This document shows, one piece after another, positions 35,662-64,000 of a DNA stretch of 64,000 nucleotides (positions are counted from its first letter, which is position 1; every line of letters starts with the position of its first letter). A program made the position numbers and the translations under genes. The stretch lies in assembly GCA_000004985.1 (NCBI GenBank), contig GG738903.1, one strand, 5' to 3'. The notes under the pieces are model-generated. The model was not told where the DNA came from and made no database searches. It saw only the letters and a program-made list of their open reading frames with translations. Source of the DNA: Naegleria gruberi (taxonomy: Eukaryota).

Positions 35662-35711
35662 NNNNNNNNNNNNNNNNNNNNNNNNNNNNNNNNNNNNNNN
35701 NNNNNNNNNNN
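35662..35711. other. assembly gap (50 N)
   Basis: Run of N read directly. Confidence 0.95.
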
Positions 35712-44805: not shown

Positions 44806-47800
44806 ATGAAAAAGGTATTTGGTAGTTACCATTGCCAACTTTTAGTTTTGTTGGCTTTTTGCATGTGTTTTGTGCAATCAACAAATATTTATCAATCATC
44901 TTCATCAAATTCCTCTATTTATTATAATAATTTGGCCACCTATAGTGTTCAAACAATTATTGGATATCCGAGGCCATTGCAAAATTACTTTCCGAGTGGT
45001 TTGCCAGCCACTTACTATTGGGGATTATCAATACAGGCAATTGTATTGCCACGAAATGGTGATGGAAGTTTACATGGTGATGAAATTATTTACATCTCCT
45101 CCATGGAAATAATTTACAAATATTCAAAACAAGATGGACTATTGAGAAAGTTATCATTTAGTGGTGAGAAATGGTATGATATTTCATCATTCTTTGTTTT
45201 GAAAACTCAGGAAGGAGGAACTTTAATATATGTTACTTCCAATAGACTCGAGTCGACTGTTTATTCGGCAAGTGAAGAAAGTGGAACTGTTCAGAGGATT
45301 GCAGGTTCTTTGAGTTCATCGGGATATAATGGTACGTAATGGAGTAAATTGATTTTGTAATATGAGAATGTACATTGTAAAGGTGATGGAAAACCAGCTA
45401 TCGATTCCTTACTGAGCCAACCTCAATCTGTATTTGTTAAGGATGGTGAGGTTTATATTTGTGATACAAATAATCATCTGATTCGACGTATTGATAGGAA
45501 TGGAATTTTATGGAATGTTTTTCGTAAGTGTGTGTTAATTTTCAATTTATTTAAAACATTTAATATTTCTAAAAACAGAAAAAGGGTTTGTAAGGGAACC
45601 ACAACAACTAATTTTTGCAGGGAATGATATGGTAGTAAACACAGGCAATTTGATTCTTAGAATATTTCCCAATCAAACATATGAAACTCATTATGCTTTC
45701 TATTCATTTTCTAAAGCTGCTGTTTTTGAAAATGATATCTACTATATCAATTATGGTAGTATCCAGAAGGCAATTGGTTCATATTCCTCTGAGACTGTGT
45801 TAGTGTTTGAAAAATCTGCCAAAATTCCTAGAATTCTAACAATCAACAATGAGGGAAATTATTTAGTTTCAGTTGGAAACGTTTTAAAAGAATTTCAGAG
45901 ATATAATGATAGTATTGGAAGAGTTGTGATTGGAACATCGGATTCTAATCTTCAATACTATACATTACCAGCAAATATCTCAGATATTCAAAACGTTGAA
46001 TCGATGACACTTTGTGAAGAGGACAATTCCATTATTTTCACTCAACATTCGTCTTCTGTTATAAGACATTATGTTCCAAACAAACCATTCATGGATGTTG
46101 TTGGAATGAATGTGGATAAGATATCTTTTATTTCAAAGTATGGGAATGATATGTATGCAATTGTGAATAATAATATTTACTTGAGGAATAACCAAGGAAA
46201 TTTCACTCAATTATCAGGATTGCTATCACCAGTCAATGTACCTGATAATATTAAGGCAACATTATCAACCTTAAACAATCCTAGAGGAATATTTCTTAAA
46301 AACCAAAAACTGTACATTTCTGATTCGAATAATCATAGAATACGAGTAATTGATATACAAACTGGACTTATTTCTACATTGGCAGGAAATGGAATTGCAA
46401 ATTTTAGTGGTGATGGGCTAGCCGCAACAGAAGCATCCCTAAACTCTCCATCTGGTGTATTTGTTTCAGAGTTTGGAAAAATTTATATATCTGACTCTGG
46501 TAATCATAGAATTAGAGCTATTCTTCCAAATGGCATTATTTCAACTGTTGGAGGTAATGGTATTCCTGGATTTTCGGGTGATAATGGTTTGGCTACTAAT
46601 GCAAGTCTTAACAACCCCTATGGCATAGTTGAAACATATAGTGGTGACTTGATTATTTCTGATTCTGATAACAATAGAATTAGACTAATCGATAGATATG
46701 GAATTATCACAACTCTAGCTGGAACAGGAGAGAAAGGATTCCAGGATGGATTCTTTCTCGACGCGTTATTTAACAATCCATCTCAATTATTTTACTTCCA
46801 TTCCCGCTTGTACATTTCAGATACATATGGCCAAAGGATTCGTGAAGCAAATCTTGAATCAAAAACCGTAAAAACAATTATTGGAACAGGAGAGAAGGGA
46901 TACAATGGAGATAATTTCCCAACCACCACTCAGCTCAATAACCCTCTATCAATGTTTATTACATATAATAATATTATTTACATTGCAGATACTGACAACA
47001 AGAAAATAAGAATGTTGAATACGGGTATTGTATCAACACTAGAGCTTACTTTTGAATCTCCAAAGGGAATAACTGGAGATGATAAATTTCTCTATATCAC
47101 CGATGGGAATTTAGTTAAGAAAATTGATATTGCCAATGGTTATAGAGTTGAAATTATTGGAGGTGGAATTGGTGATGGTTGGTACTTGAAGTATGCAATT
47201 CTTAATGCTGAAAACCTTGCTTTTGATGATGAGAAGAATGTTTATTTTACAGATTCTTCTCATAATGTTGTAAGAAAGTTCAATACAATGAATGGAATAG
47301 TGAGTACAGTAGCAGGAAGGACTAGTACATTGGGATATGAAGGTAAGTTTCAATTACTACTAATATCTCATTAAAAAAACAACAGGTGATGGTGGATTGG
47401 CTGTTGGGGCTCTCTTAAATTTTCCAAAAGGTATTGCAGTTTCCAAGTCGAGTTTAGGATTCTTTCTCTATATTTGTGACTTTGAAAATCAACGCATTCG
47501 AAGAGTTAATTTGGAAACTGGAATAATAACAACAGTAGTAGGTACAGGTCAAAAAGGATATAGTGGTGATGGAGGGTTAGCAATTTATGCCAAGATTACT
47601 AATCCAACACATATAGCTGTCAACAAGGAAGGAGAAGTTTTCTTCTCAGATTACAATTATGTAAGGAAAATAACAAGAAATGGATATGTTTATAGAATAT
47701 CTGGTGCTCAAGGAGGAACTGATTTTAATGGAGATTCATATCCTGCTTTGGAAACAGGTTTCAGTATTACAAGTAAGTATTTTATCTCCGTTTTGAAATT

Positions 47801-49429
47801 CATATTTCAATTCAGAAACTTTAATGGTAGATAATACTGGAAGTATTGTTGTTTTCGATTATAACAATCAAATTATTAGAAAGTTAATTCCTCACTGTGA
47901 AACTGGCTATAGTTTGGAACCTGAAACTAATTCTACATGCATTCCAAATTGTTTTGGAATTTATGGAAAAACAATTAATGCTTGTTCTTCACATGGATTT
48001 TGTAAAAGTTTAGATCAATGTGAATGTTATTCTGGTTATTCTGGATCAAATTGCTCAGAATCAATATGCTTTGGTAAGACGGGATCTGGAGCATGTAATG
48101 GCAAAGGAATTTGTGTTTCACCAAATGTTTGTCAGTGCTTGGATGATTATTCAGGTATTGATTGTTCGATACCTAAAACAGTTTTAATTTTAGTTGGAAG
48201 TTTGATTGCTTGTGGCTTGGTTATTGTAATAGTTTTTGTAATTTCTGTTTCAATGGTCTTTGTCTATATTCAAAATCAAAGAAAGAAGAGAGCAATCCTC
48301 ATGACTGACAAATTATTAGACAAGAGATTGCTTATGGATGATTTTGCATCCTATAATTCTTCAATGGGGATCAGTAATAGTGAACTCAATGAAGCAGATT
48401 TTGTTATTCCACTGGAACAGTTGGATATGGATCATCCAATCAAGAGGATTGGTGAAGGTTCTTTTGGAAGAGTATTTTCTACAAAATGGGGAAACCAATT
48501 AGTTGCCGTTAAGGTTGTGGACATGAATGATTTTGACATGTCGGAGGAAACTTTCAAACAAGAATTTCAAATCTTGTCACGTTTAAGACATCCAAAAATT
48601 GTCTCCTTCTATGGCATTTCATTTTCTCCAACGAAGAGATATATTGTTATGGAGCTTTGTGAACACAGCTTGGAACATGTCATTAGTCAATTGCAGAATC
48701 AAGTTATTCAAATGGATTTACAGGAAAAGATTGATATTCTAATAGATATTATTGAGGGAGTGAATTATTTACATACCTTGACTCCAAAATGCCTTCATAG
48801 AGATTTGAAACCCCTCAATATTCTTGTGAGCTTTCAGAAAGAATACAAATTATGCGATTTTGGTGTTGGAAAGATTTTAAACTCAAAAACTGTCAATTCT
48901 TTGACCAACAATGGTAAGTTTCAATGAAATTGTTCTCAATATTTAATTATATTCACAAAACACAATAGTGGGGACGTGTTACTATATGGCTCCAGAAACT
49001 ACAGGATGTGAAAGTTTACAAGAATCTGAATCAGTTTGTGCTACTTCAATAGATATTTACAGTCTGGCCATTATTTTCTACCAATTATTATTTGAAGTGA
49101 AAGAGCCCTATATTTCATGTCATGATAGAGTTTTGAAAAAGTTGAAAATGAATGAACCACTACAATTGACTAACATGTACCATTTGCATAGATTAGTGAT
49201 TGAGAAAAACCTCAGACCTATCATTCCATTTTCTTCTGCAAAGGAATGTCAACAATGGTGTCAGGAATATCTATCACCAACAGATGCCAAATATCATAGC
49301 ATTTTCTATGAGATTTGTCAATTAACTAAACTATGTTGGGATAAACAACCAAAAACGAGACCAAGTGCAAAAACTATTTTAGAACGACTCCATGGTTGGA
49401 AGAAAGAAATTGAAACAAAGTATTACTAA
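44806..49429 (+). CDS. receptor Ser/Thr/Tyr-type kinase: signal peptide–NHL repeats–EGF-like module–TM–active kinase (six exons)
   Basis: CDS = join(44806..45331,45383..45523,45579..47342,47386..47772,47816..48913,48969..49429), with introns of 51, 55, 43, 43 and 55 nt, all GTA(A/C)GT…AG and phase 1. It re-joins track ORFs 44695, 45629, 47397, 47824 and 48968. NHL repeats look like ISDSNNHRIRVID. EGF-like cysteines CxCxxGYSGSNC are present. The TM is LILVGSLIACGLVIVIVFVI. The kinase has IGEGSFGRV, VAVK, HRDLKPLNILV, DFG and GTCYYMAPE, the last spanning the final intron. The acceptor of intron 4 has an alternative in-frame site 15 nt downstream. Confidence 0.7.
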
Positions 49430-49493: not shown

Positions 49494-50727
49494 TTATTCT
49501 GAACTTGAGGATGAGGCAGTAGATACTTGTATAACTTTGCACTTTTCAAAAACTCTTTTGAATGCCAAATAGTTGGATTGATCTTTTCCATCTTCCAAAA
49601 TAGCAAACACAATACTCTTAAAACTATTTGGAAATTCCTGAGTTATTACTTCATAAAACAATTTAGCCATATGATTTTCTGAAATAAATTGAATTCAATA
49701 AAACAAATAATTAAATAATTAACTTACCTGGATTCTTGTATGCTCCACATCCAAAAGCACTCAACACAATACTCAAATGTCCATTATTAAGAGCTGCATA
49801 AAGAATTCCTCTAATTTTCTGTCTTGTTCCTTCCTCAAACTTGCTCGTCATCATGAGTTGATTTGTCTTTTTATCTAAAAAGGTATTTGGTCTAATGAAA
49901 GCACTTGCTGCAATGATTGAAATTTCCAATGGTTGATCCAAATATTCGAAAGCACTTCCTTCTCCGTGTCTTAATAATTGAACATTGGGTGAGTAAATGA
50001 TATCATAATCAGAAAGTGGATAGAACTGATCTGGGCCAATAACTGAAACTATTTGTTGATCAGGGGAAGGTTTCTTACAATTTGGATTAAACTTTTTGAA
50101 AATATCATTTGGATCTAATAGAGAATAAATGTAATTTGTTGATCTGAAGAGAGCTTCTTCTTGACTTTTCTGTCCAGTTTCAAAACCTCCACCAGCTCTC
50201 TTCTTACTTGCCATATTTAGCACAACTGGATTCATTCCATTTTTGTGTAATTTGAAAATAGTTTCAACACAATCTTCCTTAATTACTTCAATGGTAGTAG
50301 CAAATTGTTGATTAGTAGAGGTGGAATTGAAGACAATCTTCTCAATTTCATTAAATTGATATAACTTATTCTTTGCCAATTGTTGCTCATAAATTTCTTT
50401 ATCCAAGTTTCTAATAGAAACTTTCTCCTTCTTTGAATTATAATAAAACCCTCTCTGTAATGACAACATTGTATCCTTCATGACATAAATCCTCATTCCC
50501 TTCAATGCATCTGGATTATTCTCATTCAAATATCGTTGATGCCACTTTCTAAAAACAACCGAATTAAAAACTGGTGATTGTAACAATAATTTATCCGCAT
50601 TTTCTTGAATTTGATTATAGCTCTGATCAAGAGGATCCGATAAATCAATAGATTGTTGCTGATTTCCCTTTGGATTATTTGCTGATTTATCATCCGATGA
50701 TTTTCCTGGTTTCTTGTTTTTTACCAT
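49494..50727 (-). CDS. bacterial-type poly(ADP-ribose) glycohydrolase-like macrodomain protein (DUF2263/TIGR02452 family; two exons)
   Basis: CDS = complement(join(49494..49678,49728..50727)), with a 49-nt intron (GTAAGTT…TTTCAG). The signature VLNMASKKRAGGGFETGQKSQEEALFRS (GGG-x7-QEE) and the C-terminal SAFGCGAYKNP|ENHMAKLFYEV are characteristic of microbial-type PARG. The track's upstream extension to 50937 runs through poly-T promoter-like sequence, so I start at MVKNKKPGKSS. Confidence 0.65.
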
Positions 50728-50991
50728 TTTTTTTTTATTTTTTTTTAAAGTTTTAATTTTTTCAAATTGGAAATTGAAATTTAGCCAAGTTTTAATTTTC
50801 AAATTCAAATTTAACTTCAAGGCAACTTCCTGGAGTAAAATCCAAATTTCACAGGAAAGAATAAACCCTATTATATTCATATTGCCATTTCGAATAATAT
50901 TAACTCCTAACATTTTACAATAAATTAATATGACCAATAATACGATAGAATCAAGTAGATCAATAATCTATTTAAACGAAAGTGAAATAAT

Positions 50992-53900
50992 TTATTCTCT
51001 CCTATATTTAATCAAATATTCAGGATAGCATTGATATCTATCATAGACAATAAATTCTCTATATGAAGAATTAGAACTATTCGATTGACCAATCACTGAA
51101 TCATACACTCTTCTGTTGGATCCATTAATCTCTGGTGGTCTTCTCTGATTTGTCATTCCCATAGGTGTATAATAGATCTGTCTTCCCAACACAACCCTAC
51201 ACAAAAACATGTAATACTCGCCATTAGTATCTGGAGTAGAATATTGATCTGATTTGGAACAATATTCAGCAAAGTATACTCCAGCTCCAAAGAGACCAGC
51301 TAAACTGGCAACTCTTTCATCAAATCCGTGCTCTGAAATGGTATTCACATATTCATGTTTGGTACCATGCCACAAATACTTTTCATTCATTGATGTGTTC
51401 AATCCAGTTGACTTGAGCCATTCAAAAGCAGGAGATTTCAATGTTGTGAAATTTTCAGTTTGGACTTGAATGGGATTGAGTGGATCTTGATAAGAAGAAA
51501 TGTGATTTTCTCGTATCTTGTAGGCACTGTAAAGGGAAGGATTTTCAATTCTGTAAACACTTGATATGACTAGTTTCGAATATTTCATTTTGTAGAGTTG
51601 ATCTCTTCCTGATCCAAGTGTTTTCGAGTTAGAAGAAACATTCATTATTTCTTGTATAATATCTTTCAATTGACTTGTTACATCAACAGTGTTGTATCTG
51701 TCTGCAAATCTATTAAAACTATTTCGTTTCCAATAACGAGGCAACCCAATATTCAATTGTTTCGACTTGTTTTCAATCATTTCCTTCTCCATCTTTTCAA
51801 GTTTCTTTTCCTTTCTCTTCAACCTTTCCACTTGTTTTGATAATTCCTCTCTTTCCTTTGAACTTTCTCTTGATAATTGTTTCTTCTTCTGTTCTAGTTC
51901 TTTAATTTTCTGCTCGAGCTCAGCATGTTCATTTGTCATGTTAAGTTTCAAATTATTCAATTGTTGCTCATATTCTTTCAATTGTTTTGACTGGTTTTCA
52001 ATGAATTTAACTTGATCTTGAAGTTTCCTTTCGTTCAATGGTTCAAATAAATCATTTTCTTCAATTTCATCAAAACTTGGATCTGAAAGCAGGTCTATTT
52101 TAAATCCTAATCCTTCAAGTTGAATGAATTTAGTTTTGAGCTCTCTCAATTGTTCGTAAATATTCCTCCATTCTTCTTGATATTTAGGAACCTGACTCTC
52201 CTTCTTTCTTAGTTTGTTTTCAAACTTTAAGATTTCCATTTCTGGCATATTTCCCTTCTTGGCGATTTCTAATGCACTTTTGATTCCTTCAATATCTAAG
52301 GTATTCATTTTACTTCTCAATGTTGTCTTTCTAATAAGTAAATTGGTCAATTGAGAGCTCAACTGAGGATAATTATTCATAACTTCAACTTGGCTTTGCA
52401 ACTCTTCAAACTTTTCAATGATAAATGGTATTCTATCTTGAATGAACATTTCACATGTAGAATATTGAATATAATAATCATGAAATAAATGAAAAATTGT
52501 AATCTGAATTTCTTTTGGAATTAAATTTTTAAAATTTGCAGAAATGTCATCCAAGTACTTTCTTTCCTGTTCTAAATTTTCCATAGCATTACCCAAGCTG
52601 GATGATAATTCAGTATTACTAATTCCAACAGAGGAAATTAAAGAAAAAGTAATGTTTTGTAATTGTTTTGTAACGAGCTCCAATCCTATTTTTGAATTTC
52701 GTTCAAAATTCGTTCCTGATACTATTTTACCCAAAGCATTTCCAATATAGTTTGGAATTTCTTCCGTATTTTTTACATAAACAGCTTCATTATTTTGTGA
52801 ATAAATTTCGTTTAAATAGTTTCCAATAAATTCTTTCAATTTTTCTAATTTTTCTTCCAATAATTGCATGTAACTATTGAGATTTATCAAGTAACTATCC
52901 AAATTAATTGCTTCTACCACCGATCCAATATAATATAGTAAACTATTAACATGCTCAATGTGTTCTCTAATTCCAATATCCAAAACTAAATTTGGTAAAT
53001 TTTCATTAATAAAATTGTGACATGTTGATATTTGTCCCTTCATAATAAAATATCCCTCTTGAATAGATTGATGAATGAATAGCTCTTTAGATTGAAAAAT
53101 TACTTTTTCAATCGTTTCTGATAATAGAGTTCTTTGTTTGGAAACTCTTTCATTTAAGGAACATAATTCCATAAATGATTGATTAGTAATTTCATGTTGT
53201 TGTTTTCTTTCTTTTCTTATTTTTTCATTTTCTAAACTTAAACTCTCGATCTTTCTTTCTTCTTTAATTATTCTTCTTTCTTCAGGAAGAATAACACCAT
53301 AATGAATAGCTTTCGAATAGTTTCTATTATTGGAAGTAGAAACTCTATTGCTCTTTTGAGTATTTTGAATTTCAATCTGATTATTCTTCATATCTTCCAT
53401 AATTTTACCAATAGGCTCTCCATTTACTTTCAAACGATAATCAATTTCTAAATCTTCCACTTTTAGTAATAACTTTACAATTTCCAGCTGATTTTTCTGG
53501 CAAGCAGAATGGAGGGGTGTCTAATTGACTTGATTTAATAAGAATTTACAATGAAAACTTACAAAAACAAGGTTCGGATCAGTTCCTGGCTACCATAATC
53601 CTCCAATTAATCCACAATTTTTTTTATCAAAACTTACCATCTATTAAACTATTTAATAATTTACAACATCAATATTAAACACTTACAAACTATTACAAAA
53701 TACTCAACAACCACAACACACCAACAAATCAACTTACGCCAATATTAACATTAATCCCATCACACTCCAATAACAATTTTACAATTTCAACATGTCCATT
53801 CCGACACGCAACAGATAACAAAGTTCTGTTATTTAAAATATCGTCCGAATATTTGTTAACTTGTTGAGGATTGAAGAAAGTTTTAAAATCAGAAACGTTG

Positions 53901-54371: not shown

Positions 54372-56551
54372 GTGTTGATGCCCATTAAACACTTCTTTAC
54401 ATTAAAGAGATTAGAAAGCATCTTAAAGATCCTTATTAAAAAAAATATGAAGACCAAAGTTGCACCTAATATCAAATACGAAACTGAAAGTGTTTCTAGT
54501 TCTTCGGCTGATGGTATCGATGAATTGAAAACTACCTTTTTCTCTTCCATTAAATTTCTGCTCATAATTTTAATTTCCTTATTAATTTTGATTAGTGTCG
54601 TTTTGCTGTCAGTTATTTGGATCAGCAGTTTTAGTTCAGCAGTTGGTGAGATGAGCAGCAAAGTGAGAAGACAAGAATTTGAAAAGATTGTTTCATTCAC
54701 TCAAAGGATTTTAAATGATGTCATGTTAGTGACAGAATCTGTCAAATCTCAATTATATTCTGATTTTGATTTTGACACCATGATTGAAAAGCACATGTTT
54801 AAAGCCATGAGAGTAGCTCAGAAATATCTACCAAGTGTTACCCAGGGAGTCAATATAGGTGATCCATTTGGAGCCTTTTATGGACTAGCTCACTTTGGGG
54901 ATGAAATTACTTTTTATAATATCACTCCAGGAAAAGATCAGTACTATTACAATTGTCGAAACTTTTACACTAGTGACTATTGTAATAGATCTTCTGAACC
55001 TGATATTGTCTATCCTCCATTCACTTCCAATTTTGTGGCAGAATCTGCTTCAGTCAACCCTGGCAATCCGGTGTTTACAGTTTCGTATGTGGATCCAACC
55101 TTACCGAATTTTGTCTTCCTTACAGCAGTCTCATCTTTCAAACAGGGAAATATCAAGTCAGGTGCCAGTTTTTCATACTTTTTTGGTTATGACATGACCG
55201 TGGCTTCAATTTCTGAATTTTTAGTTGAAATTACAAAAGAAGTGAGTGGCTCATCTTCGTTTATTATAGAAAAGAAGACAGATTTCATTATTGCAAGTGA
55301 CCATCCAGAGGTTGCGGTTGCCACAGTCGATTCTCAAGGAAACGTTCAAAGAAAAACAGCAAACGATTTTGGAGGTGATGTTACCAAAATTGGTAATATT
55401 GTTTATGGAGCTTTTAAATCATTTGATGAATTAACTTGCAATACTGAAAGTGTACTATCAGATGTTAGTAATGTCATTTCGGTTTATAGACTTTGTACTG
55501 AGGAGGGATTGGAATGGGTTCTTGTGTTTAGTGTTCCTCACTGGAATTATATTGGATCGATGGTTATTGCGATAATTTGTGCCATTTTGGGATCAATTCT
55601 GATCGTTTCTATTGGTATGGTAANNNNNNNNNNNNNNNNNNNNNNNNNNNNNNNNNNNNNNNNNNNNNNNNNNNNNNNNNNNNNNNNNNNNNNNNNNNNN
55701 NNNNNNNNNNNNNNNAAATGAATCCAACGATACAGTTACACTCTTGACTGACATTTTTGAAATCATTGGACAAGCAGCCAAAACAAGTTGTGGACAAATT
55801 GGAAAGTTTGAAAATGAAATGGTGACTATTCATTTCAATGCCACAAATGATCAAAATCAACATGAAATGAAAGGTCTACAATTATGTCATGTCCTCCTAT
55901 CCAAGTTAAATGGATACAAGGAAAGAAAATTAAGGAAACATCAATTATTGGAAAAGTATAAGGAATCCTCTCTCATAGAACGATTCAACTTTAGAATAGT
56001 TGCCAATAGTCAATATAATTTGTGTGGAAATTTGGGAACGAAACAAGTGATGACATTTTCAATTCTTGGAAGTACACCTTTCAATTTACAATCAATGATT
56101 GAAACTGCTAAGGAATTGGATGTTCCAATATTAATTTCAGATGATTTGAATGAAAAGGTTGATAATTTATTCCAAACTAGATATGTGGATACGAAAGAAA
56201 TGGTCATTGATCAGTATTACACCTCCCCTGTATCTGATTCGAATTTGTTTAGTATGAGAAGAGTTTATGAATTGGGAGAATCTTCTCAAATTGCGCAAGA
56301 TGAATGGATGTAAGTTATCATGGTTCTTTACTAATTAATTTTCAAATAATTTATTCGAAAGGTATGAGTTGGAAGCTAAGGAAAAGAAGAATCGTTGGAA
56401 CAAGTACAATAATGCATGTGCAATGGTCTTTGAGAATAAATATGGTGACGCTGCAAACATGTTGCGGGATTACATTACAGAACTTTCGAATGCAAAACAA
56501 GATTTGGTAGCTATAAGGTTACTTGAAAATTGTGAAAGACTATGCCAGTAA
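54372..56551 (+). CDS. receptor-type class III nucleotidyl cyclase-like protein (TM–extracellular domain–TM–divergent cyclase homology domain), interrupted by an assembly gap
   Basis: ORF 54372..55623 has two TM helices flanking an extracellular domain of about 320 aa and runs into the 92-N gap. After the gap the same strand reads …TVTLLTDIFEIIGQAAK… (compare cyclase F.DIVGFT) and …RIVANSQYNLCGNLGTKQVMTFSILGSTPFNLQSMIETAKELDVPILISDDL (compare RIGIHSGPVVAGVIG…GDTVNTASRMES…I.VS). The second metal-binding Asp motif (ETIGDAY) is not conserved. A 52-nt intron 56310..56361 joins the C-terminal exon 56362..56551. Frame continuity across the gap is unknown. Confidence 0.5.
55624..55715. other. assembly gap (92 N) inside the cyclase-like gene
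   Basis: Run of N read directly. Confidence 0.95.
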
Positions 56552-58137: not shown

Positions 58138-58466
58138 ATGTCCAATCACCAAAGAGCTCTTCTTGCCCCAGAGAATCAACACATGATGATGGACGAGCAT
58201 CCATCTTTTATTCTCTCCACCAATTATCAATACAATGAAGATGATAAATCCATGACTGTTGCCGATTTTCTCCGTAAACAAGTTGCTTTAAAGGTAAATT
58301 ATCATCCTATTAATACTTCAACAATTAATCCCAATTCAAACAACAATTTACACAGAATGATGAAATGAAATTATTATCAGAACGTATGATACAACAACTT
58401 GTTGCCAATGGAATCAAACATCGAGAAGAGATCAAACAAGCCTTCAGAAACCAACAAAAACAATAA
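58138..58466 (+). CDS. hypothetical small protein (89 aa, two exons)
   Basis: CDS = join(58138..58293,58356..58466), with a 62-nt intron GTAAAT…CACAG in phase 0. The product is MSNHQRALLAPENQ…FLRKQVALK|NDEMKLLSERMIQQLVANGIKHREEIKQAF…. No family recognised. Confidence 0.35.
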
Positions 58467-58623
58467 TTCTTCTTTGATGATGTTCAATGTCGAATTGGAC
58501 TCTGATGAAGAATTGTTGCGATTTGTCCATTCAAAAAAATGGAGCAATTAAACGGTTTGCCTGTTCTATCGCCATCAGTATTGACAACATCTCCACATTC
58601 TGGAGAATTGGGTGTCAGCAACA

Positions 58624-60435
58624 ATGAATACTACAGGTAAATCATCATCGGACGAATGTCATCCCATTGCATGTATTCGATGTAGAAAGTTGCATAAAAA
58701 GGTTTGTCTCAAATTTAGTGAAGGTTTTTTACCCTTTCTTGTTGTTTAGTGTGATAAAAAGCTAGCTGGTTGTTCCAAATGTGCATCAGCAGGTGTTGAA
58801 TGTATTGTAGGTTGATGATTATTATCTTCTAACTTATCTTCCATAGTATAATTCTCCTCAGAAGAGAGGCAAAGGCTCGGAAATTTATGCCAAAACACCT
58901 AAAGATAAATCAGACAAAGATATTAACACCCAGAAACCAAGTAAGAAGAAGAAGAAAACTGCTGATAGTGTAATAATAATAGTAGTATTAGTAATGTGGA
59001 AGTTGTGAACAATTCAACGACAAACGAAACAAATAATCATAGTACGAACTCTACTCCGACTAGTAGTGCATCAACAGCGACAGTAACAACAACATCACCA
59101 CCATCTTTATTGTCACCTAATCATTTAGTAGAATTGTATTATACTTTCGTTTGTGGAATTCATCCAATGATAGAAAAGGATAAATTTAAATATTTTGTAA
59201 ATAATTGCCTTCCACAGTTTGAGAGAAGAGCAGAGTTGCATTTGGATCCAAATATTTGGATAAAATCTGTTGAGGAAATGAGATGCCTTTATGCATTATA
59301 TTTGGCAATAATGACAATGGGATCTCACCTAGTTGCTGATTTGAATTCAGTTGATTTTTATGCAAGAAAGGCTGAGCTGGAGATTGCCCTTCTTTCTCTC
59401 GATCATTCCACTGAGTTTTATTGGGCTGCTGCATGTCACTATATTTACTTGCACTATGTATCAGATGGGGACAATTACAAAGCAGGGTATTATTTGGCTA
59501 AAGTGAATTATTATTTCAATAGTCAAAAGGAAAAACCTAGTCCTAACAAATATTTTCATTTGTTAGAGTTCCACTCTTCAGTTGTTGCAAGTAGATTTAA
59601 TGAAGAGGCAAACACGTTTCAAAGTTTAATGAAGGGAATGAGTAGCATGTTTTATCATTATTCCAATCGAAAGATAGAGGATACACTATTGCCTGGGACT
59701 TGGGAGTATTGTATGAATACGAAACTATGCCAACAAAACTATATTCTATTCAAGCAAGTTTCAGAGTTTATTTTCAAAAATTTGGCTCATTTCAAGCTTC
59801 ATACTATGAAAACATTAACAGATTGTCATAGTGAGGGATTTTTTAAGTCTCAACGACTGCTCGCTTTATTTGTTGCTGAGGGATATACTATTTTATTTAT
59901 GAAACAAATACCAGAGATTAGTTATTCTGTACTTGAAGAAGCATGTCTGAAAGTCACATTGTTGACTGAAAATGAGGTTTTCCCATTCGTTTTACTTGCA
60001 GCTATCTATATTATTGTTGAGGCAGCTCAATTTCATCTGGAGGCTTGCAAACAAATTGAAAGAGGACTTAAACCTAGGAAGGCCACTGTTTTTACATCAG
60101 CAGGAAAGGTCATTACATTTGATTATTTTTCAATATTGGAAAAGGATCTGCGAGCACTTCACGTTTTGGGTCAACGTTACAGGAGAGTTAGCGCTTCACA
60201 TAGTGATCTAATGTTGGAAATATCTCAAATATTGGAAAGGAATAATAATGTAGACATGTCTCCTCCAGTTTTCTCTTCTTCAAAATTCACACCACCTCTT
60301 CAATCCATTCCACAACAGGATGAAGTTCTTGCAAGACAATTAGAAGAACAACACAATGTTAGCAAATCAGAAGATACAGAATCTTTCCTTTCCGATCAAT
60401 CTCTAGGCCCTTGGGAAGAATTATTCAAAGATTGA
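58624..60435 (+). CDS. Zn(II)2Cys6 binuclear-cluster (Gal4-like) transcription-factor-like protein; the DNA-binding domain is split by two introns, and the link to the long C-terminal ORF is unresolved
   Basis: Proposed exons 58624..58701 (MNTTGKSSSDECHPIACIRCRKLHKK), 58750..58806 (CDKKLAGCSKCASAGVECI) and 58847.. (YNSPQKRGKGSEIYAKTPKDKSDKDINTQKPSKKKKK…), with introns of 48 nt (GTTTGT…TTTAG) and 40 nt (GTAGGT…CATAG). Together these give the six-cysteine pattern C-x2-C-x6-C-x6-C-x2-C-x6-C followed by a basic linker. The 479-aa ORF 58996..60435 is in a different frame. A short intron or an indel in the AAG/A-rich stretch around 58940..58990 is needed to connect the two parts. Confidence 0.45.
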
Positions 60436-60506: not shown

Positions 60507-62498
60507 TTGCTTACAATGAAAAAAAATATCACGACAAGCAACATGTCAGTTGTGCTTCTTCCTGAAATCCTTGGTGAAGTGTTCACTTTTTTACCCTATC
60601 GTTTATTATTTAATACAATCAGGAGAGTTTGTAAAGAATGGAATCACTTGATCACTGATGGTTCTTCCATCCGAAACAGTTCATTGAAAATTGTTTCTCT
60701 CTGTTTTATGAAAGAGGAGAGAAGACAAGCCTTCTGGGAATGTTGCAAAGCAGGCTACTTTAATAAGAGTATTGAAGAGTTGATTATCCGATTGCCAAAA
60801 GAAATGATGTGGAATCAGACAGAGAAGGAAATATTGGATTCCGATGATAATTCACTGTTACACTATTTTCAGAGTGTTAAAAGTTTGTCCTTGAGAGATT
60901 CTAAAATTTATTCTGATAATTTTGGTATGATGTTGGAGAATTGCAAATCAGCTGCAACTCTTGAGGGTATTACAGAGTTGAGTGTTGAAAATAATGGATT
61001 GAATAATCTTGATATTAATTTAATTGCTGAAAAACTTCCTAATTTAACACATATTGATATTTCATCCAATCCTATTAATGAAGGTGGCTTGGATGTATTG
61101 CTGACCAATCAAAAGTTAAAGACAATTTTTGCAGGTGTAAACGAAATTGAAGATGAAACAGATTTGGACAAGATGAAATGCACACAAATTGAAGAGTTAA
61201 CTATTAGTAATACTGATTTTGGAGATAGATATTTGGAACTTTTATTTGATCATAAGAAGAATAGAGATTTATTGAAGAATATGAAGGAGTTAGATTTGAT
61301 GGATACGTTGCCGTCCGATGTTGGATTGTCGTACATGAAAAACTATCCATATCCAACAAATATCACCTTCCTTAATTTGGAATATAATGAGCTGTTGCCA
61401 GAAACTCTTGCCATTATCACCCAGAGCCAAGCTCTATCCAATTTGAAGACTCTATTACTTCCAAATGGATCTATTCTTTCTGAGGGGTTTAGCTTGATTA
61501 CAAAATGCCCTTTTTTCAAAAATGTCACTAAATTGGATGTTAGTAATAACACAATTGGAGATGAGGGATTTATTCACTTTGGAACAGAAAATTTCACTCT
61601 CAAAAACCTAATTCATTTCAAATGCAATACTAACACAGTTGGTTATGAAGGATATCAACATTTTTTCAAGGAACCTTCTCTTTCAGGACTACAAAAGCTT
61701 AAGATTGCAGATACCAACTTTGATGATGACTCTGTGAGTGAATTGGCGTCTGCAAATTTGGCTTCCTTGAAAGTTCTTGATTTTGTAGGAAATATTATAA
61801 CTGATAAGGGATTTGAAACTCTTTCTCAACTCAAGGCACCAAAATTGGAAAAAATTTTATGTGGAGGTTCCAATGCAACTTCCTACAAGGGAGCAATTTA
61901 CTTTTTGGAGAATTGCTCTCTGCCAAATCTCAAATATTTGGATATTGATTTTTATGAAGAGTACAAGGAAGAAAATAAGGAAATTCTTGATGGTCCAGAA
62001 GTTGTTGAATTAGTAAAGGCCAATTCATTAAAAGTTGCCAAGGTATTAGTGCAAAGATTTCCAAGATTGAATGGTATTAAATATGACTCATATATCAGTG
62101 TTGAGATATTGAAAGTATTCCTTGATGGATTATCAGAACTGATTTCATTGTGTATTCAGGTTAATTTTATAGATGATGATCACATTATTTTACTGACCAG
62201 CCATCCACAGGCTGCCAAATTAGAAAAGCTTTACCTTTCAGATAATAAGATTACAGATGTTGGAGCTAAACTCATTTCTGAATGCGCACAGTTCAAGAAT
62301 TTACTAGAGCTTTCATGTGAAGATAATTTATTTACAGATGAAGGATGGAAGTTAATATTTTCAAGTAGAAATTTAATGTCCCTCACAAAATTATTTACAG
62401 ATTTCAATGAGAATGATATAGTTGACTGTGAATTATTGAATATTGATTATATATCGGCTTCTGATAAAGATCTCTATGAAGATGCTGAAGAAGAGTAA
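60507..62498 (+). CDS. F-box / RNI-like leucine-rich-repeat protein
   Basis: 663-aa ORF. The N-terminus LLPEILGEVFTFLPYRLLFNTIRRVCKEWNHLI is an F-box. It is followed by about 14 ribonuclease-inhibitor-type LRRs (e.g. LPNLTHIDISSNPINEGGLDVLL, LKVLDFVGNIITDKGFETL). Confidence 0.65.
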   Translation: MLTMKKNITTSNMSVVLLPEILGEVFTFLPYRLLFNTIRRVCKEWNHLITDGSSIRNSSLKIVSLCFMKEERRQAFWECCKAGYFNKSIEELIIRLPKEMMWNQTEKEILDSDDNSLLHYFQSVKSLSLRDSKIYSDNFGMMLENCKSAATLEGITELSVENNGLNNLDINLIAEKLPNLTHIDISSNPINEGGLDVLLTNQKLKTIFAGVNEIEDETDLDKMKCTQIEELTISNTDFGDRYLELLFDHKKNRDLLKNMKELDLMDTLPSDVGLSYMKNYPYPTNITFLNLEYNELLPETLAIITQSQALSNLKTLLLPNGSILSEGFSLITKCPFFKNVTKLDVSNNTIGDEGFIHFGTENFTLKNLIHFKCNTNTVGYEGYQHFFKEPSLSGLQKLKIADTNFDDDSVSELASANLASLKVLDFVGNIITDKGFETLSQLKAPKLEKILCGGSNATSYKGAIYFLENCSLPNLKYLDIDFYEEYKEENKEILDGPEVVELVKANSLKVAKVLVQRFPRLNGIKYDSYISVEILKVFLDGLSELISLCIQVNFIDDDHIILLTSHPQAAKLEKLYLSDNKITDVGAKLISECAQFKNLLELSCEDNLFTDEGWKLIFSSRNLMSLTKLFTDFNENDIVDCELLNIDYISASDKDLYEDAEEE

Positions 62499-62504
62499 AT
62501 AGCA

Positions 62505-63668
62505 CTAATCCTTTACTACATTAATCCTTAGCAAGTGTTCTATAGTTTCTCTAATCATCACGTTATTGTTGATGAATTCCATTCCCAAATCTTGTTTAAT
62601 TTTCTTATTGGAATAATAGGATGGCTTACCAAGGTTACTGTTAATACCTTGCCTTACTCCTTTTGGTTGAAATAGAGCTAATCCCTTCACAAGAATAGTT
62701 CCAAAACCTCCTTCCAATGACAATGTTGGTAATTGCTTTAGGAAATTTCTCTCTGGGAATTCTTTCTTAATTATTTCACATATTTGTCTAATTGAGATGG
62801 TTTCATCTCCACAACAAATGAAACGTTCTCCTTTGGATGGTAAAAATCTTTGTGGATTATCCATATCTAATTCCATACACTTGACATGTGAAAGAGCAAC
62901 ATCTTTCACATCTACAAAGGTCATGTACATTGCAATTAGAGCTGGCATTTCACCATTTACAACTTTGGCTACAATATCATGAGTTTGGTTGACTTGTTGT
63001 GGAAGAACTGGTTTACCAATGACGCCGCTAGGATTAATGGTTGCCAATTCAATGAAATCTTGTCCATGTTTAGTTTGCATTTCTTTCATTAGCTTCCAAG
63101 CTGCCTTCTCAGAAGTTACTTTGGAATAATAATAAGGATTTCTATCAACAGTTGACAATTCATTCCAATCATCCTCGGTGTAGATCTTATCCTTCTCAGC
63201 AGTATCACAAATAGCAACAATGGATGAAGTGATAATCACTCTCTGTAATCTATTGACATCATGCGTTGCTTGTTCTTGTCTGAGCTTGATACATTCATTT
63301 AGAATATTCAAAGTTCCTTTCACAGCTGGGTCAACCAATTCCTGTTGTGCATCTTTAACATCTAATTTATATGGACTGGCCACATGATGAACGAAACGAC
63401 ATCCCTTAATGACATCTGCAAAACTTCCTTCTTTCATTAAATCTGCCTCAAAGATTGATAAACGCTCGTTCAATACTTGTTCAGTGAGTAGTTGAGTTGG
63501 ATCTGTGCAATTCTCCTTGTGGTATTGCAGGAGTGCATCTCTCAATTCATCCTTCTTTTTCAAATCTCTTATGGTAGTATTGACATGATAGCCCTTCAAT
63601 AATAACTGATAAACCAAGTGGCTAGCAACAAAGCCAGTGCCACCAGTAACGCACACCCTTATGGACAT
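62505..63668 (-). CDS. NAD(P)-dependent reductase of the extended SDR family (cinnamoyl-CoA reductase / dihydroflavonol reductase / GRE2-like)
   Basis: Rossmann motif VCVTGGTGFVASHLV directly after the Met at 63668, and the catalytic YYYSK (YxxxK). I prefer 63668 to the track's ORF start at 63815, whose extra 49 aa are low-complexity with no homology signal. Confidence 0.75.
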   Translation of the reverse strand: MSIRVCVTGGTGFVASHLVYQLLLKGYHVNTTIRDLKKKDELRDALLQYHKENCTDPTQLLTEQVLNERLSIFEADLMKEGSFADVIKGCRFVHHVASPYKLDVKDAQQELVDPAVKGTLNILNECIKLRQEQATHDVNRLQRVIITSSIVAICDTAEKDKIYTEDDWNELSTVDRNPYYYSKVTSEKAAWKLMKEMQTKHGQDFIELATINPSGVIGKPVLPQQVNQTHDIVAKVVNGEMPALIAMYMTFVDVKDVALSHVKCMELDMDNPQRFLPSKGERFICCGDETISIRQICEIIKKEFPERNFLKQLPTLSLEGGFGTILVKGLALFQPKGVRQGINSNLGKPSYYSNKKIKQDLGMEFINNNVMIRETIEHLLRINVVKD

Positions 63669-64000
63669 TTGATTTGTTTTTTTTTGGTTTCTTGCTGTTG
63701 TAAATCTAAACCATTTCTGTTTTTGAAGAATCTGCTGCGTGAGCACTAATGTTGGCTTGAAAATGATGGAAAATATGTGCGTTTCATCTTCGAACCAATT
63801 GAAGTGCTCACTCAATATTCAATACAATGACAATACCCTACAGACAGGGTACTCCGGATTGCCCCATGCATTTTTAAAATTAGCCAAACTCCAAGGCAGT
63901 GTTGTGGTAGTTGACTCAATTATGCCTGAAAACCTTTTCTCAAGAATTTCCACCGTGTCGTTGTATTGGATAGGAATCAATCTAAATTTACTGTGGTTCA

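What the first reader, a model, noticed from the sequence alone, without database searches (positions are those of the whole stretch)
58624..60435. Gal4-type Zn2Cys6 DNA-binding domain encoded across three tiny exons, joined to a 479-aa C-terminal ORF only through a frame discontinuity
The six-cysteine binuclear-cluster pattern plus a basic linker is typical of fungal transcription factors and uncommon elsewhere. The apparent frameshift in an AAG/A-rich tract before the long ORF is either an unrecognised micro-intron or a draft-assembly indel. Both possibilities bear on whether the factor is functional.
Basis: partly seen in the sequence, partly recalled or inferred. Interest (0 to 1): 0.5.

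Follow-up and report, generated by a model that had tools for sequence, protein, structure and literature searches.

The report
Mis-annotated Naegleria zinc-cluster transcription factor gene
This is a real Naegleria gruberi gene for a Gal4/Cep3-like zinc-cluster transcription factor whose public model lacks the DNA-binding exons. Its reading frame is broken by what looks like a one- or two-base error or recent mutation rather than a hidden intron, so it is an annotation or assembly repair, not a new kind of system.

Summary

**What is confirmed**
- The window is Naegleria gruberi.
- Exons 58624-58701 and 58750-58806, plus an exon starting at 58847, encode a Zn2Cys6 domain (Pfam Zn_clus 38.8 bits against a 21-bit cut-off).
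- Both introns (48 and 40 nt) sit at the same positions in two related metagenome loci.
- The 479-codon ORF is the C-terminal domain of the same gene. The N. gruberi paralogue P0002 (576 aa) matches all three pieces in order.

**Corrections**
- The frame break is real, but it is not in the AAG/A tract. Poly-K is conserved coding sequence, and the downstream frame has TGA TAG at 58963-58968. The break must lie in the AGT/AAT tract, 58967-59008.

**Interpretation**
- Three homologues read through this point in one frame.
- Every frame-restoring GT-AG pair that keeps the poly-K has a donor unlike the eight verified introns, which are all GTNNGT.
- Removing one GT, or adding one base, gives a 573/574-aa protein collinear with P0002.
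- An indel (assembly error or recent mutation) is therefore favoured at about 0.6-0.7 over an intron at about 0.2-0.25. No transcript or independent genomic sequence was available to settle this.

The public model (374 aa) is truncated. Interest is low to moderate.

The parts
58624..58701 (+). Exon 1 (26 codons, MNTTGKSSSDECHPIACIRCRKLHKK). Holds the start codon and Cys1 and Cys2 of the Zn2Cys6 cluster.
   Evidence: Translation. tblastn with P0002. The HPIAC-x2-CR-x2-HK motif is at least 90% conserved in the family alignment. L002 has an equally short N-terminus.
58702..58749 (+). Intron 1, 48 nt, phase 0, GTTTGT...TTTAG.
   Evidence: Same position (after HKK) in L002, which has a 41-nt GTTTGT...AAAAG intron. 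L001 begins inside it. In-frame stop inside.
58750..58806 (+). Exon 2 (19 codons, CDKKLAGCSKCASAGVECI). Holds Cys3 to Cys6.
58807..58846 (+). Intron 2, 40 nt, phase 0, GTAGGT...(TTCTAAC)...CATAG.
   Evidence: The acceptor at 58846 gives CI|YNSPQKRGKG, matching P0002 CV-YKTPQKRGKG, L001 CT|YNTPRKRGKG and L002 CT|YRSPKKRGKG. The Zn_clus score rises from 29.1 to 38.8 bits with this acceptor.
58847..58969 (+). First part of exon 3, in window frame 2 (41 codons, YNSPQKRGKGSEIYAKTPKDKSDKDINTQKPSKKKKKTADS). Covers the end of the DNA-binding domain, a basic stretch and poly-K (probable nuclear localisation signal, inferred).
   Evidence: tblastn 58847-58972 with P0002. A poly-K run recurs in many family members.
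58967..59008 (+). Interval that must contain the frame break. Its bounds are the frame-1 stops TGA TAG at 58963-58968 and the frame-2 stop TGA at 59006-59008. Sequence: AGTGTAATAATAATAGTAGTATTAGTAATGTGGAAGTTGTGA. The simplest repairs are to remove one GT of AGTGTAAT (58968-58971) or to add one base.
58969..59124 (+). N/S/T/P-rich low-complexity linker read in frame 1 (CNNNSSISNVEVVNNSTTNETNNHSTNSTPTSSASTATVTTTSPPSLLSPNH).
   Evidence: Open frame. Comparable N/S/T-rich linkers occur at this place in L001/P0005 and P0006.
59116..60252 (+). C-terminal all-helical regulatory domain with a Cep3-like fold and one beta hairpin.
60253..60435 (+). Predicted disordered acidic tail ending in the conserved SLGPWEELF motif, then the stop codon TGA at 60433-60435. 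Possible activation domain (inferred).
   Evidence: pLDDT is below 50 for model residues 391-408 and 417-435. The motif is conserved in P0002 and P0004. Similar acidic/hydrophobic C-termini occur in P0011-P0026.
59311..60435 (+). Extent of the only public protein model for this gene (P0001, 374 aa, 'predicted protein', starting at the internal Met of MTMGSHL). It lacks the DNA-binding domain, the linker and the first ~65 residues of the C-terminal domain.
   Evidence: No other protein in the 5.8-billion-cluster database matches the DNA-binding exons at high identity.

Best explanation
One Naegleria gruberi gene (58624-60435, + strand) encodes a roughly 573-aa zinc-cluster transcription factor with the Gal4/Cep3 layout.

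**Layout**
- An N-terminal Zn2Cys6 DNA-binding domain, split by two short conserved introns.
- A basic/poly-K stretch.
- An N/S/T-rich linker.
- A large helical Cep3-like regulatory domain.
- An acidic tail.

**The frame break**
In the assembled sequence the third exon is interrupted by a shift equivalent to one missing base or two extra bases. It lies in 58967-59008, most simply an extra GT in AGTGTAAT at 58968-58971. I read this as an indel, not a spliceosomal intron. It is either a sequencing or assembly error in this draft scaffold or a very recent frameshift allele. These two cannot be told apart here; I lean slightly to error.

**Consequence for the annotation**
The small 5' exons plus the frame break explain why the public model is a truncated 374-aa protein with no DNA-binding domain.

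**Shown**
- Gene identity, exon and intron positions, and the location of the break.
- Absence of an intron at this point in homologues.
- Fold similarity to Cep3.

**Inferred**
- DNA binding through the zinc cluster, by analogy with Gal4-type domains that bind CGG-containing sites.
- Poly-K acting as a nuclear localisation signal.
- Dimerisation or regulation through the helical domain, as in Cep3.
- The acidic tail acting as an activation domain.
- The indel nature of the break.
For: **Gene identity**
- P0001 is 100% identical over the C-terminal 374 aa and is from N. gruberi. P0002 is 51% identical over 97% of my first spliced model and carries PF00172.
- tblastn with P0002 hits the three segments in order, in frames 1, 2 and 1.
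- Zn_clus scores 38.8 bits, E 9.7e-10.
- The family profile matches the DNA-binding domains of LAC9, PUT3, GAL4, HAP1, Cep3, PPR1 and LEU3 in the PDB.

**Exon and intron structure**
- Intron positions are conserved in L001 and L002.
- The KRGKG exon runs uninterrupted into the C-terminal domain in L001 and L002. It does so too in the Logan/ENA ORF P0009, which shares a cluster with N. gruberi P0109.

**Location of the break**
- The K-run is conserved. Compare P0002 NPSKKKKKSSES and P0017 PKKKKKKTDS with TQKPSKKKKKTADS here.
- The frame-1 stops at 58963-58968 confine the break to 58967-59008.

**Against an intron at the break**
- Eight verified introns are 38-55 nt long and all have GTNNGT donors: five GTAAGT, two GTTTGT and one GTAGGT.
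- The in-frame donors that keep the K-run are GTGTAA, GTGGAA, GTTGTG and GTGAAC.
- GTGTAA scores -12.7 bits. About 97% of all GT sites in the window score at least as well.

**Repair and integrity**
- Deleting GT, or adding one base, gives a 573/574-aa ORF aligned 13-571 to P0002 61-574, at 49% identity and 565 bits.
- The downstream 479 codons are fully open in a 33% GC genome and keep all 39 columns that are invariant in the five-sequence alignment A1. Any real frameshift must therefore be recent.

**Precedent**
- In fungal Zn2C6-MHD genes, more than 90% of 'MHD-only' models are annotation errors.
- In S. cerevisiae strain assemblies, 75% of such cases are 1-2-base frameshifts in the genome sequence (PMC10141177).
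Against: - I found no transcript and no independent genomic sequence of this locus. P0001, P0002 and the 479-aa ORF are not on record in the contig index. P0001's cluster has one member.
- Several GT-AG pairs do restore the frame. Introns as short as 38 nt and AAG acceptors occur in this lineage, so the 35-nt candidate 58968-59002 is not excluded on length or acceptor.
- The donor GTAAGA at 58941 is in the top 5% of GT sites in the window.
- The tract has no homopolymer and is about 3.3 kb from the nearest assembly gap. It is not an obvious place for a sequencing error.
- The donor statistics rest on only eight introns.
- The genomic structure of the closest paralogues, P0002 and P0003, could not be read.
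Confidence: 0.62

Rival explanations
1. An unannotated spliceosomal intron bridges the two frames. One option is the 35-nt GTGTAA...GGAAG intron at 58968-59002, giving ...KKKKKTADI|VNNSTT.... The other is an intron starting at the better donor GTAAGA at 58941 and ending at 59002, 59077 or 59083 (62, 137 or 143 nt), which removes the poly-K and part of the linker. The gene would then be intact and only mis-annotated.
For: - These GT-AG pairs restore a single ORF of 526-562 aa.
- Verified introns in this gene family are as short as 38-48 nt, and AAG acceptors occur.
- GTAAGA at 58941 scores in the top 5% of GT sites.
- The gene already has two introns.
- The mean N. gruberi intron is 203 bp. A minimum intron length of 30 bp was used for read mapping in N. 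fowleri (PMC8296547).
Against: - There is no intron at this point in L001, L002 or P0009.
- All eight verified donors are GTNNGT. GTGTAA scores -12.7 bits.
- The 58941 donor would splice out PSKKKKK, which is conserved as coding sequence in P0002 and across the family.
- Frame 1 stays open through the whole candidate intron. By my own arithmetic from the 0.072 stop-per-codon rate, 36 open codons for 58941-59077 would be expected with probability about 0.07.
- Because GT and AG are frequent in this AGT-rich tract, the existence of in-frame pairs carries little weight.
Confidence: 0.23
2. The frameshift is genuine and has biological consequences. Either the locus is a recently disabled paralogue of an expanded family, or it now makes two products. 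These would be a 98-aa protein with only the DNA-binding domain (MNTT...KKKKKTADSVIIIVVLVMWKL) and, separately, a helical-domain protein as annotated (P0001).
For: - The sequence as assembled encodes exactly this.
- The family is large, so loss of one copy is plausible.
- The tract has no homopolymer that would favour a sequencing error.
- This overlaps the 'real mutation' half of the best explanation. The figure here is for the break being real rather than an artefact.
Against: - The 479-codon downstream frame is intact and keeps the residues that are invariant in the five-sequence alignment A1.
- No promoter or independent start for the C-terminal part has been demonstrated.
- In fungi, proteins with only the helical domain are overwhelmingly artefacts (PMC10141177).
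- The hydrophobic frame-2 tail VIIIVVLVMWKL is unlike any family member.
Confidence: 0.28
3. Programmed -1 ribosomal frameshifting joins frame 2 to frame 1 during translation.
For: The required shift is -1 (frame 2 to frame 1).
Against: - By direct reading, there is no X XXY YYZ slippery heptamer in 58967-59008.
- The A-rich run at 58943-59 lies upstream of the frame-1 stops, so it cannot serve.
- Homologues need no recoding.
Confidence: 0.01

Closest known systems
Heterolobosean Zn2Cys6 proteins (e.g. N. gruberi P0002; XP_002673725/NAEGRDRAFT_80888, UniProt D2VQN7, 'Zn(2)-C6 fungal-type domain-containing protein'; homologues in N. fowleri, N. lovaniensis and Willaertia magna)
   Same: - The same HPIAC-x2-CR-x2-HK-x-C-x6-C-x2-C-x3-G-x2-C-x-Y-x2-P DNA-binding domain.
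- The same poly-K, low-complexity linker, C-terminal helical domain and acidic tail.
- 49% identity end to end with P0002 after repair.
   Different: This copy has a frame break inside exon 3. Its public model lacks the DNA-binding domain. It also has a 13-residue insertion (KTPKDKSDKDINT) relative to P0002.
Fungal CeGAL family (Zn2C6 + middle homology domain; Gal4, Cep3; Mayer et al. 2023, PMC10141177)
   Same: - The same domain order: an N-terminal Zn2Cys6 domain and a large helical domain.
- The same annotation problem: the DNA-binding domain is lost from gene models because of small 5' exons and frameshifts.
   Different: - No PF04082 match in any of 49 members.
- No species-named fungal sequence among the 20 of 101 profile hits that I checked, which included the weakest.
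- 9-10% identity to Cep3.
- No coiled-coil element is evident after the cluster, judged by eye only.
- The host is a heterolobosean, whereas the CeGAL pair is described as fungal-specific.
Gal4-type Zn2Cys6 binuclear cluster DNA-binding domains with solved structures (GAL4 1d66/3coq, PUT3 1zme, LAC9 1cld, HAP1 1hwt, PPR1 1pyi, LEU3 2er8)
   Same: Six-cysteine spacing and a basic inter-cysteine segment. The family profile matches them at E 1.8e-7 to 6.6e-2.
   Different: The heterolobosean version has its own invariant flanks (HPIAC before Cys1; Y-x2-P-x-[KR] after Cys6). Its DNA target is unknown.

Membership tests
Zn2Cys6 binuclear cluster DNA-binding domain (Pfam PF00172, Gal4 type) | Six cysteines spaced C-x2-C-x6-C-x5-12-C-x2-C-x6-8-C. 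| tested here: met
   C17-x2-C20-x6-C27-x6-C34-x2-C37-x6-C44 in the spliced product.
Zn2Cys6 binuclear cluster DNA-binding domain (Pfam PF00172, Gal4 type) | HMM score above Pfam's gathering threshold. | tested here: met
   38.8 bits against 21, E 9.7e-10, profile positions 2-38 of 39. 29.1 bits with the less accurate acceptor.
Zn2Cys6 binuclear cluster DNA-binding domain (Pfam PF00172, Gal4 type) | Binds two zinc ions and DNA (CGG-type half sites). | not testable with these tools
   Needs biochemistry such as DAP-seq or EMSA.
CeGAL / fungal Zn2C6-MHD transcription factors | Middle homology domain detected by PF04082 (Fungal_trans) or PF11951. | tested here: not met
   No hit at E<=1 for this protein. 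None in 49 family members at E<=0.1.
CeGAL / fungal Zn2C6-MHD transcription factors | C-terminal domain has the Cep3-type helical fold. | tested here: met
CeGAL / fungal Zn2C6-MHD transcription factors | DNA-binding domain and helical domain on one polypeptide. | tested here: inconclusive
   True for paralogues (P0002, P0011 and others). In this gene it holds only after repairing the frame break.
CeGAL / fungal Zn2C6-MHD transcription factors | Restricted to fungi, as the family is defined in PMC10141177. | tested here: not met
   The source is Naegleria gruberi. All 15 looked-up relatives whose cluster carries a species name are Heterolobosea; five others are unnamed metagenome sequences.
Heterolobosean Zn2Cys6 / helical-domain family | C-terminal domain matches the family profile, and the DNA-binding domain carries the HPIAC...Y-x2-P signature. 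| tested here: met
   The profile was built from the window ORF and four relatives. It retrieves 101 representatives, 68 of them at E<=1e-10. The signature is present.
Heterolobosean Zn2Cys6 / helical-domain family | Two phase-0 introns, after HKK and one residue after Cys6, with a third exon continuous into the C-terminal domain. | tested here: inconclusive
   Both introns are present at the same positions as in L001 and L002. The third exon is not continuous here.
Spliceosomal intron at the frame break | GT-AG boundaries that restore the frame without removing conserved residues. | tested here: met
   58968-59002 (35 nt) and a few others. This is weak evidence, because GT and AG are abundant in the tract.
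Spliceosomal intron at the frame break | Donor fits the local consensus GTNNGT (mostly GTAAGT). | tested here: not met
   The candidates that keep the K-run are GTGTAA, GTGGAA, GTTGTG and GTGAAC. Eight of eight verified introns are GTNNGT. GTAAGA at 58941 comes close but deletes the conserved poly-K.
Spliceosomal intron at the frame break | Removed from mature mRNA. | not testable with these tools
   No N. gruberi transcript data could be reached.

The most novel reading that the evidence does not exclude
The Zn2C6 plus Cep3-like helical-domain architecture, currently defined as fungal-specific ('CeGAL'), is also the backbone of a large, sequence-divergent transcription-factor expansion in Heterolobosea (Naegleria, Willaertia). 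That implies either an origin much older than fungi or an ancient transfer between fungi and amoeboflagellates. A more speculative addition: this particular copy tolerates its frameshift through use of a non-consensus 35-nt intron.
Probability: 0.35. Interest if true: 0.5.

Novelty: new member of a known kind. Interest (0 to 1): 0.3.

Why it matters
**Practical**
- The public N. gruberi protein for this locus (374 aa, no domains) should be replaced by a roughly 573-aa Zn2Cys6 factor.
- The same truncation probably affects paralogues P0003 and P0004, and at least one N. fowleri model.
- Counts of DNA-binding transcription factors in Naegleria are therefore likely to be underestimates. This is the same problem already documented for fungal Zn2C6-MHD genes.

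**Conceptual**
- The helical domain of this heterolobosean family is invisible to Pfam's Fungal_trans model, yet its predicted fold resembles Cep3 more than any other solved structure.
- That weakens the 'fungal-specific' label for the Zn2C6-MHD pair.
- It also gives a defined family for asking how this regulator class arose.

Whether this one copy is functional depends on a one- or two-base question that a single PCR can answer.

Tried and rejected
1. **First splice model.** It used acceptor 58861 and a 62-nt intron at 58941-59002. I rejected it because the acceptor at 58846 gives YNSPQKRGKG, matching three homologues, and raises the Zn_clus score. The 58941 donor also removes the conserved poly-K.
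2. **A 73-nt GTAATA...CATAG intron (58970-59042).** I entertained this for a while. With exon 3 fixed in its correct frame it is out of frame, so I dropped it.
3. **Base composition to separate intron from exon.** This was not decisive. Verified introns range from T-rich to A-rich.
4. **Unconstrained enumeration of GT-AG combinations.** It gave hundreds of solutions, which shows only that in-frame pairs are uninformative.
5. **Independent copies or transcripts of the locus.** Exact-product look-ups for P0001, P0002, P0006 and the 479-aa ORF returned nothing. The JGI metagenome scan found no relative.
6. **The upstream ORF 58539-58640 as a possible true N-terminus,** which would have implied a second frameshift. 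Its similarity to the P0002 N-terminus is not significant (24 bits, shuffle p about 0.2).
7. **AlphaFold2 with five sequences.** The model was too poor to use (pLDDT 56.6). I repeated it with 49 sequences.
8. **The afdb50 fold library** was unavailable.
9. **Literature searches for Naegleria Zn2Cys6 factors** found nothing specific in the held library.
10. **Programmed frameshifting.** There is no slippery site.
Full report
**1. What is in the sequence**

The window has 33% G+C and contains two runs of N. Its 479-aa ORF at 58996-60435 is 100% identical to the C-terminal part of a 374-aa 'predicted protein' of Naegleria gruberi, P0001. The window is therefore N. gruberi nuclear DNA.

Upstream, in window frame 1, lie two short coding pieces:
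- 58624-58701: MNTTGKSSSDECHPIACIRCRKLHKK
- 58750-58806: CDKKLAGCSKCASAGVECI

They are separated by a 48-nt GTTTGT...TTTAG intron. A 40-nt GTAGGT...CATAG intron follows. Frame 2 then reads YNSPQKRGKGSEIYAKTPKDKSDKDINTQKPSKKKKKTADS at 58847-58969.

The six cysteines have the canonical spacing. Pfam Zn_clus scores 38.8 bits (E 9.7e-10) against a cut-off of 21. My first model used a wrong acceptor and scored 29.1 bits.

**2. Is it one gene?**

Yes.
- The N. gruberi paralogue P0002 (576 aa, carries PF00172) aligns to 97% of the spliced model.
- By tblastn it hits 58660-58806 (frame 1), 58847-58972 (frame 2) and 59125-60426 (frame 1) in order.
- Two metagenome contigs from Naegleria-like organisms show the same structure. 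These are L001 (encoding P0005) and L002 (encoding P0008). Each has an intron after HKK and another one residue after the sixth cysteine (38-46 nt, GTAAGT or GTTTGT donors). Each then has a third exon beginning Y-x-[ST]-P-x-KRGKG.
- An alignment of ten DNA-binding domains from the family shows the signature HPIAC-x2-CR-x2-HK-x-C-x6-C-x2-C-x3-G-x2-C-x-Y-x2-P.

**3. The frame discontinuity**

- Frame 1 has TGA TAG at 58963-58968, immediately after the AAG/A-rich tract.
- The tract itself encodes PSKKKKK. This is conserved in P0002 (NPSKKKKKSSES) and recurs as a K-run across the family, for example P0017 PKKKKKKTDS.
- Frame 2 ends at TGA 59006-59008.

The shift must therefore lie in 58967-59008 (AGTGTAATAATAATAGTAGTATTAGTAATGTGGAAGTTGTGA). 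This is an AGT/AAT-rich tract with no homopolymer.

**4. Intron or indel?**

(a) In L001, in L002 and in the Logan/ENA ORF P0009, the KRGKG exon continues in one frame into the C-terminal domain. P0009 shares a 90% cluster with N. gruberi P0109. An intron here would be specific to this copy.

(b) I collected eight introns supported by homology or by domain continuity:
- two in this gene;
- three in L001 and L002;
- three in the NHL-EGF-kinase gene at 45629-49.3k, whose spliced product has an intact kinase core.

They are 38-55 nt long and all have GTNNGT donors: five GTAAGT, two GTTTGT and one GTAGGT.

(c) With exon 3 fixed in its correct frame, the in-frame GT-AG pairs fall into three groups:
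- Pairs that keep both the K-run and the C-terminal domain start at GTGTAA (58968; to 59002, 59077 or 59083).
- Others start at GTGGAA, GTTGTG or GTGAAC (58996-59005). These would translate an odd hydrophobic VIIIVVLV.
- GTAAGA at 58941 is the only donor close to consensus (top 5% of GT sites), but using it deletes the conserved poly-K.

GTGTAA scores -12.7 bits on the small donor matrix. About 97% of all GT sites in the window score at least as well.

(d) Frame 1 is open through all candidate introns and reads as the same N/S/T-rich linker seen in homologues.

(e) Removing one GT (58970-71), or adding one base, gives a 573/574-aa ORF. It aligns 13-571 to P0002 61-574, at 49% identity and 565 bits.

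(f) There is a precedent in fungal Zn2C6-MHD genes. More than 90% of 'MHD-only' models are annotation errors. In S. cerevisiae strain assemblies, 75% are 1-2-base frameshifts in the genome sequence (PMC10141177).

Points against an indel, or leaving the matter open:
- Introns of 38 nt and AAG acceptors exist in this lineage.
- The sample of donors is small.
- The tract is not a typical place for a sequencing error.
- I could reach no transcript and no independent genomic read.

My estimates are: indel about 0.6-0.7, intron about 0.2-0.25, other explanations 0.1 or less. Within the indel reading I split roughly evenly between assembly error and a recent real frameshift, leaning slightly to error. 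The intact, conserved 479-codon frame means any real frameshift must be recent.

**5. The C-terminal domain**

- Pfam finds nothing in it, and no PF04082 match.
- Of 49 family members, 26 carry Zn_clus and none carries Fungal_trans.
- A profile of the domain searched against 1.84 billion representative proteins returns 101 hits at E<=0.001, 68 of them at E<=1e-10.
- I looked up 20 of these, including the weakest. All 15 whose cluster carries a species name are N. gruberi, N. fowleri, N. lovaniensis or Willaertia magna. The other five are unnamed metagenome sequences.
- An AlphaFold2 model built with 49 sequences is confident (pLDDT 86.7, pTM 0.83). It is all-helical with one hairpin and a disordered tail.
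- The top Foldseek hit is 6fe8_B, a chain of the CBF3 core complex that contains Cep3 (probability 1.00, TM 0.52).

The architecture therefore works like a Gal4/Cep3 ('CeGAL') factor. By sequence criteria and taxonomy, however, it is not a member of the fungal family as defined.

**6. Probable mechanism (inferred)**

- The zinc cluster contacts DNA.
- The basic and poly-K segments target the protein to the nucleus.
- The helical domain mediates dimerisation or regulation, as in Cep3.
- The conserved acidic/hydrophobic C-terminus (SLGPWEELF) could activate transcription.

None of this was tested.

**7. Verdict**

This is a genuine but ordinary gene. It is a new (unannotated) full-length member of a heterolobosean Zn2Cys6 family that databases already partly label 'Zn(2)-C6 fungal-type domain-containing protein'. 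The frame break is most likely an indel-type error or a recent mutation. The Cep3-like fold in a non-fungal lineage is a modest point of wider interest.

Noticed in passing
P0016 (N. fowleri XP_044567455; related protein, not in the window): The annotated model reads ...CRKMHK-KLPSC... and lacks the 'KCD(K/R)' segment that holds the third cysteine. The gap falls exactly at the conserved intron-1 position. The N. fowleri model was probably spliced at a wrong acceptor.
   Followed up: no
P0003 and P0004 (N. gruberi paralogues; not in the window): Both public models start inside or after the linker (MIDVYFTCVCGIHP...; MFMTCVAEGNQ...) and have no DNA-binding domain. The cause is probably the same truncation as at this locus.
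   Followed up: no
window 49714-50937 (-) and 50995-53460 (-): A microbial-type poly(ADP-ribose) glycohydrolase (PF10021, E 2e-31) sits directly next to a PARP catalytic-domain protein (PF00644, E 4e-23) on the same strand.
   Followed up: no
window 45629-49.3k (+): Splicing out three GTAAGT introns (47343-47385, 47773-47815, 48914-48968; 43, 43 and 55 nt) joins three long ORFs into one 1219-aa product. It carries NHL repeats, EGF modules, a hydrophobic segment and a protein kinase domain, so it looks like a receptor kinase.
   Followed up: partly
window 35662-35711 and 55624-55715: Runs of 50 and 92 N mark scaffold gaps, so the window comes from a draft assembly. The second gap lies inside or next to the ORF at 54372-55721.
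   Followed up: no
window 58539-58640 (+): A 33-codon ATG ORF (MEQLNGLPVLSPSVLTTSPHSGELGVSNNEYYR) overlaps the start codon of the zinc-cluster gene in another frame. It could be an upstream ORF in the 5' leader. Its resemblance to the P0002 N-terminus is not significant.
   Followed up: yes
window 58140-58466 (+): A small upstream gene appears to run from MSNHQRALL... to ...KQVALK, then a putative roughly 63-nt GTAAAT...CACAG intron (58295-58357), then NDEMKLLSERMIQQLVANGIKHREEIKQAFRNQQKQ. I read this by eye only and did not verify it.
   Followed up: no
window 60507-62498 (+) and 62508-63815 (-): The downstream neighbours are an F-box-like/leucine-rich-repeat protein and an NAD-dependent epimerase/dehydratase-family protein. 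Nothing links them to the zinc-cluster gene.
   Followed up: no
L001 (ERZ929261) and L002 (ERZ27315067), whole loci: ENA metagenome contigs with 34% and 39% G+C carry clear homologues with Naegleria-type short introns. Uncultured heteroloboseans are therefore present in these samples. L002 also holds a second 481-aa ORF and an acetyltransferase gene.
   Followed up: partly
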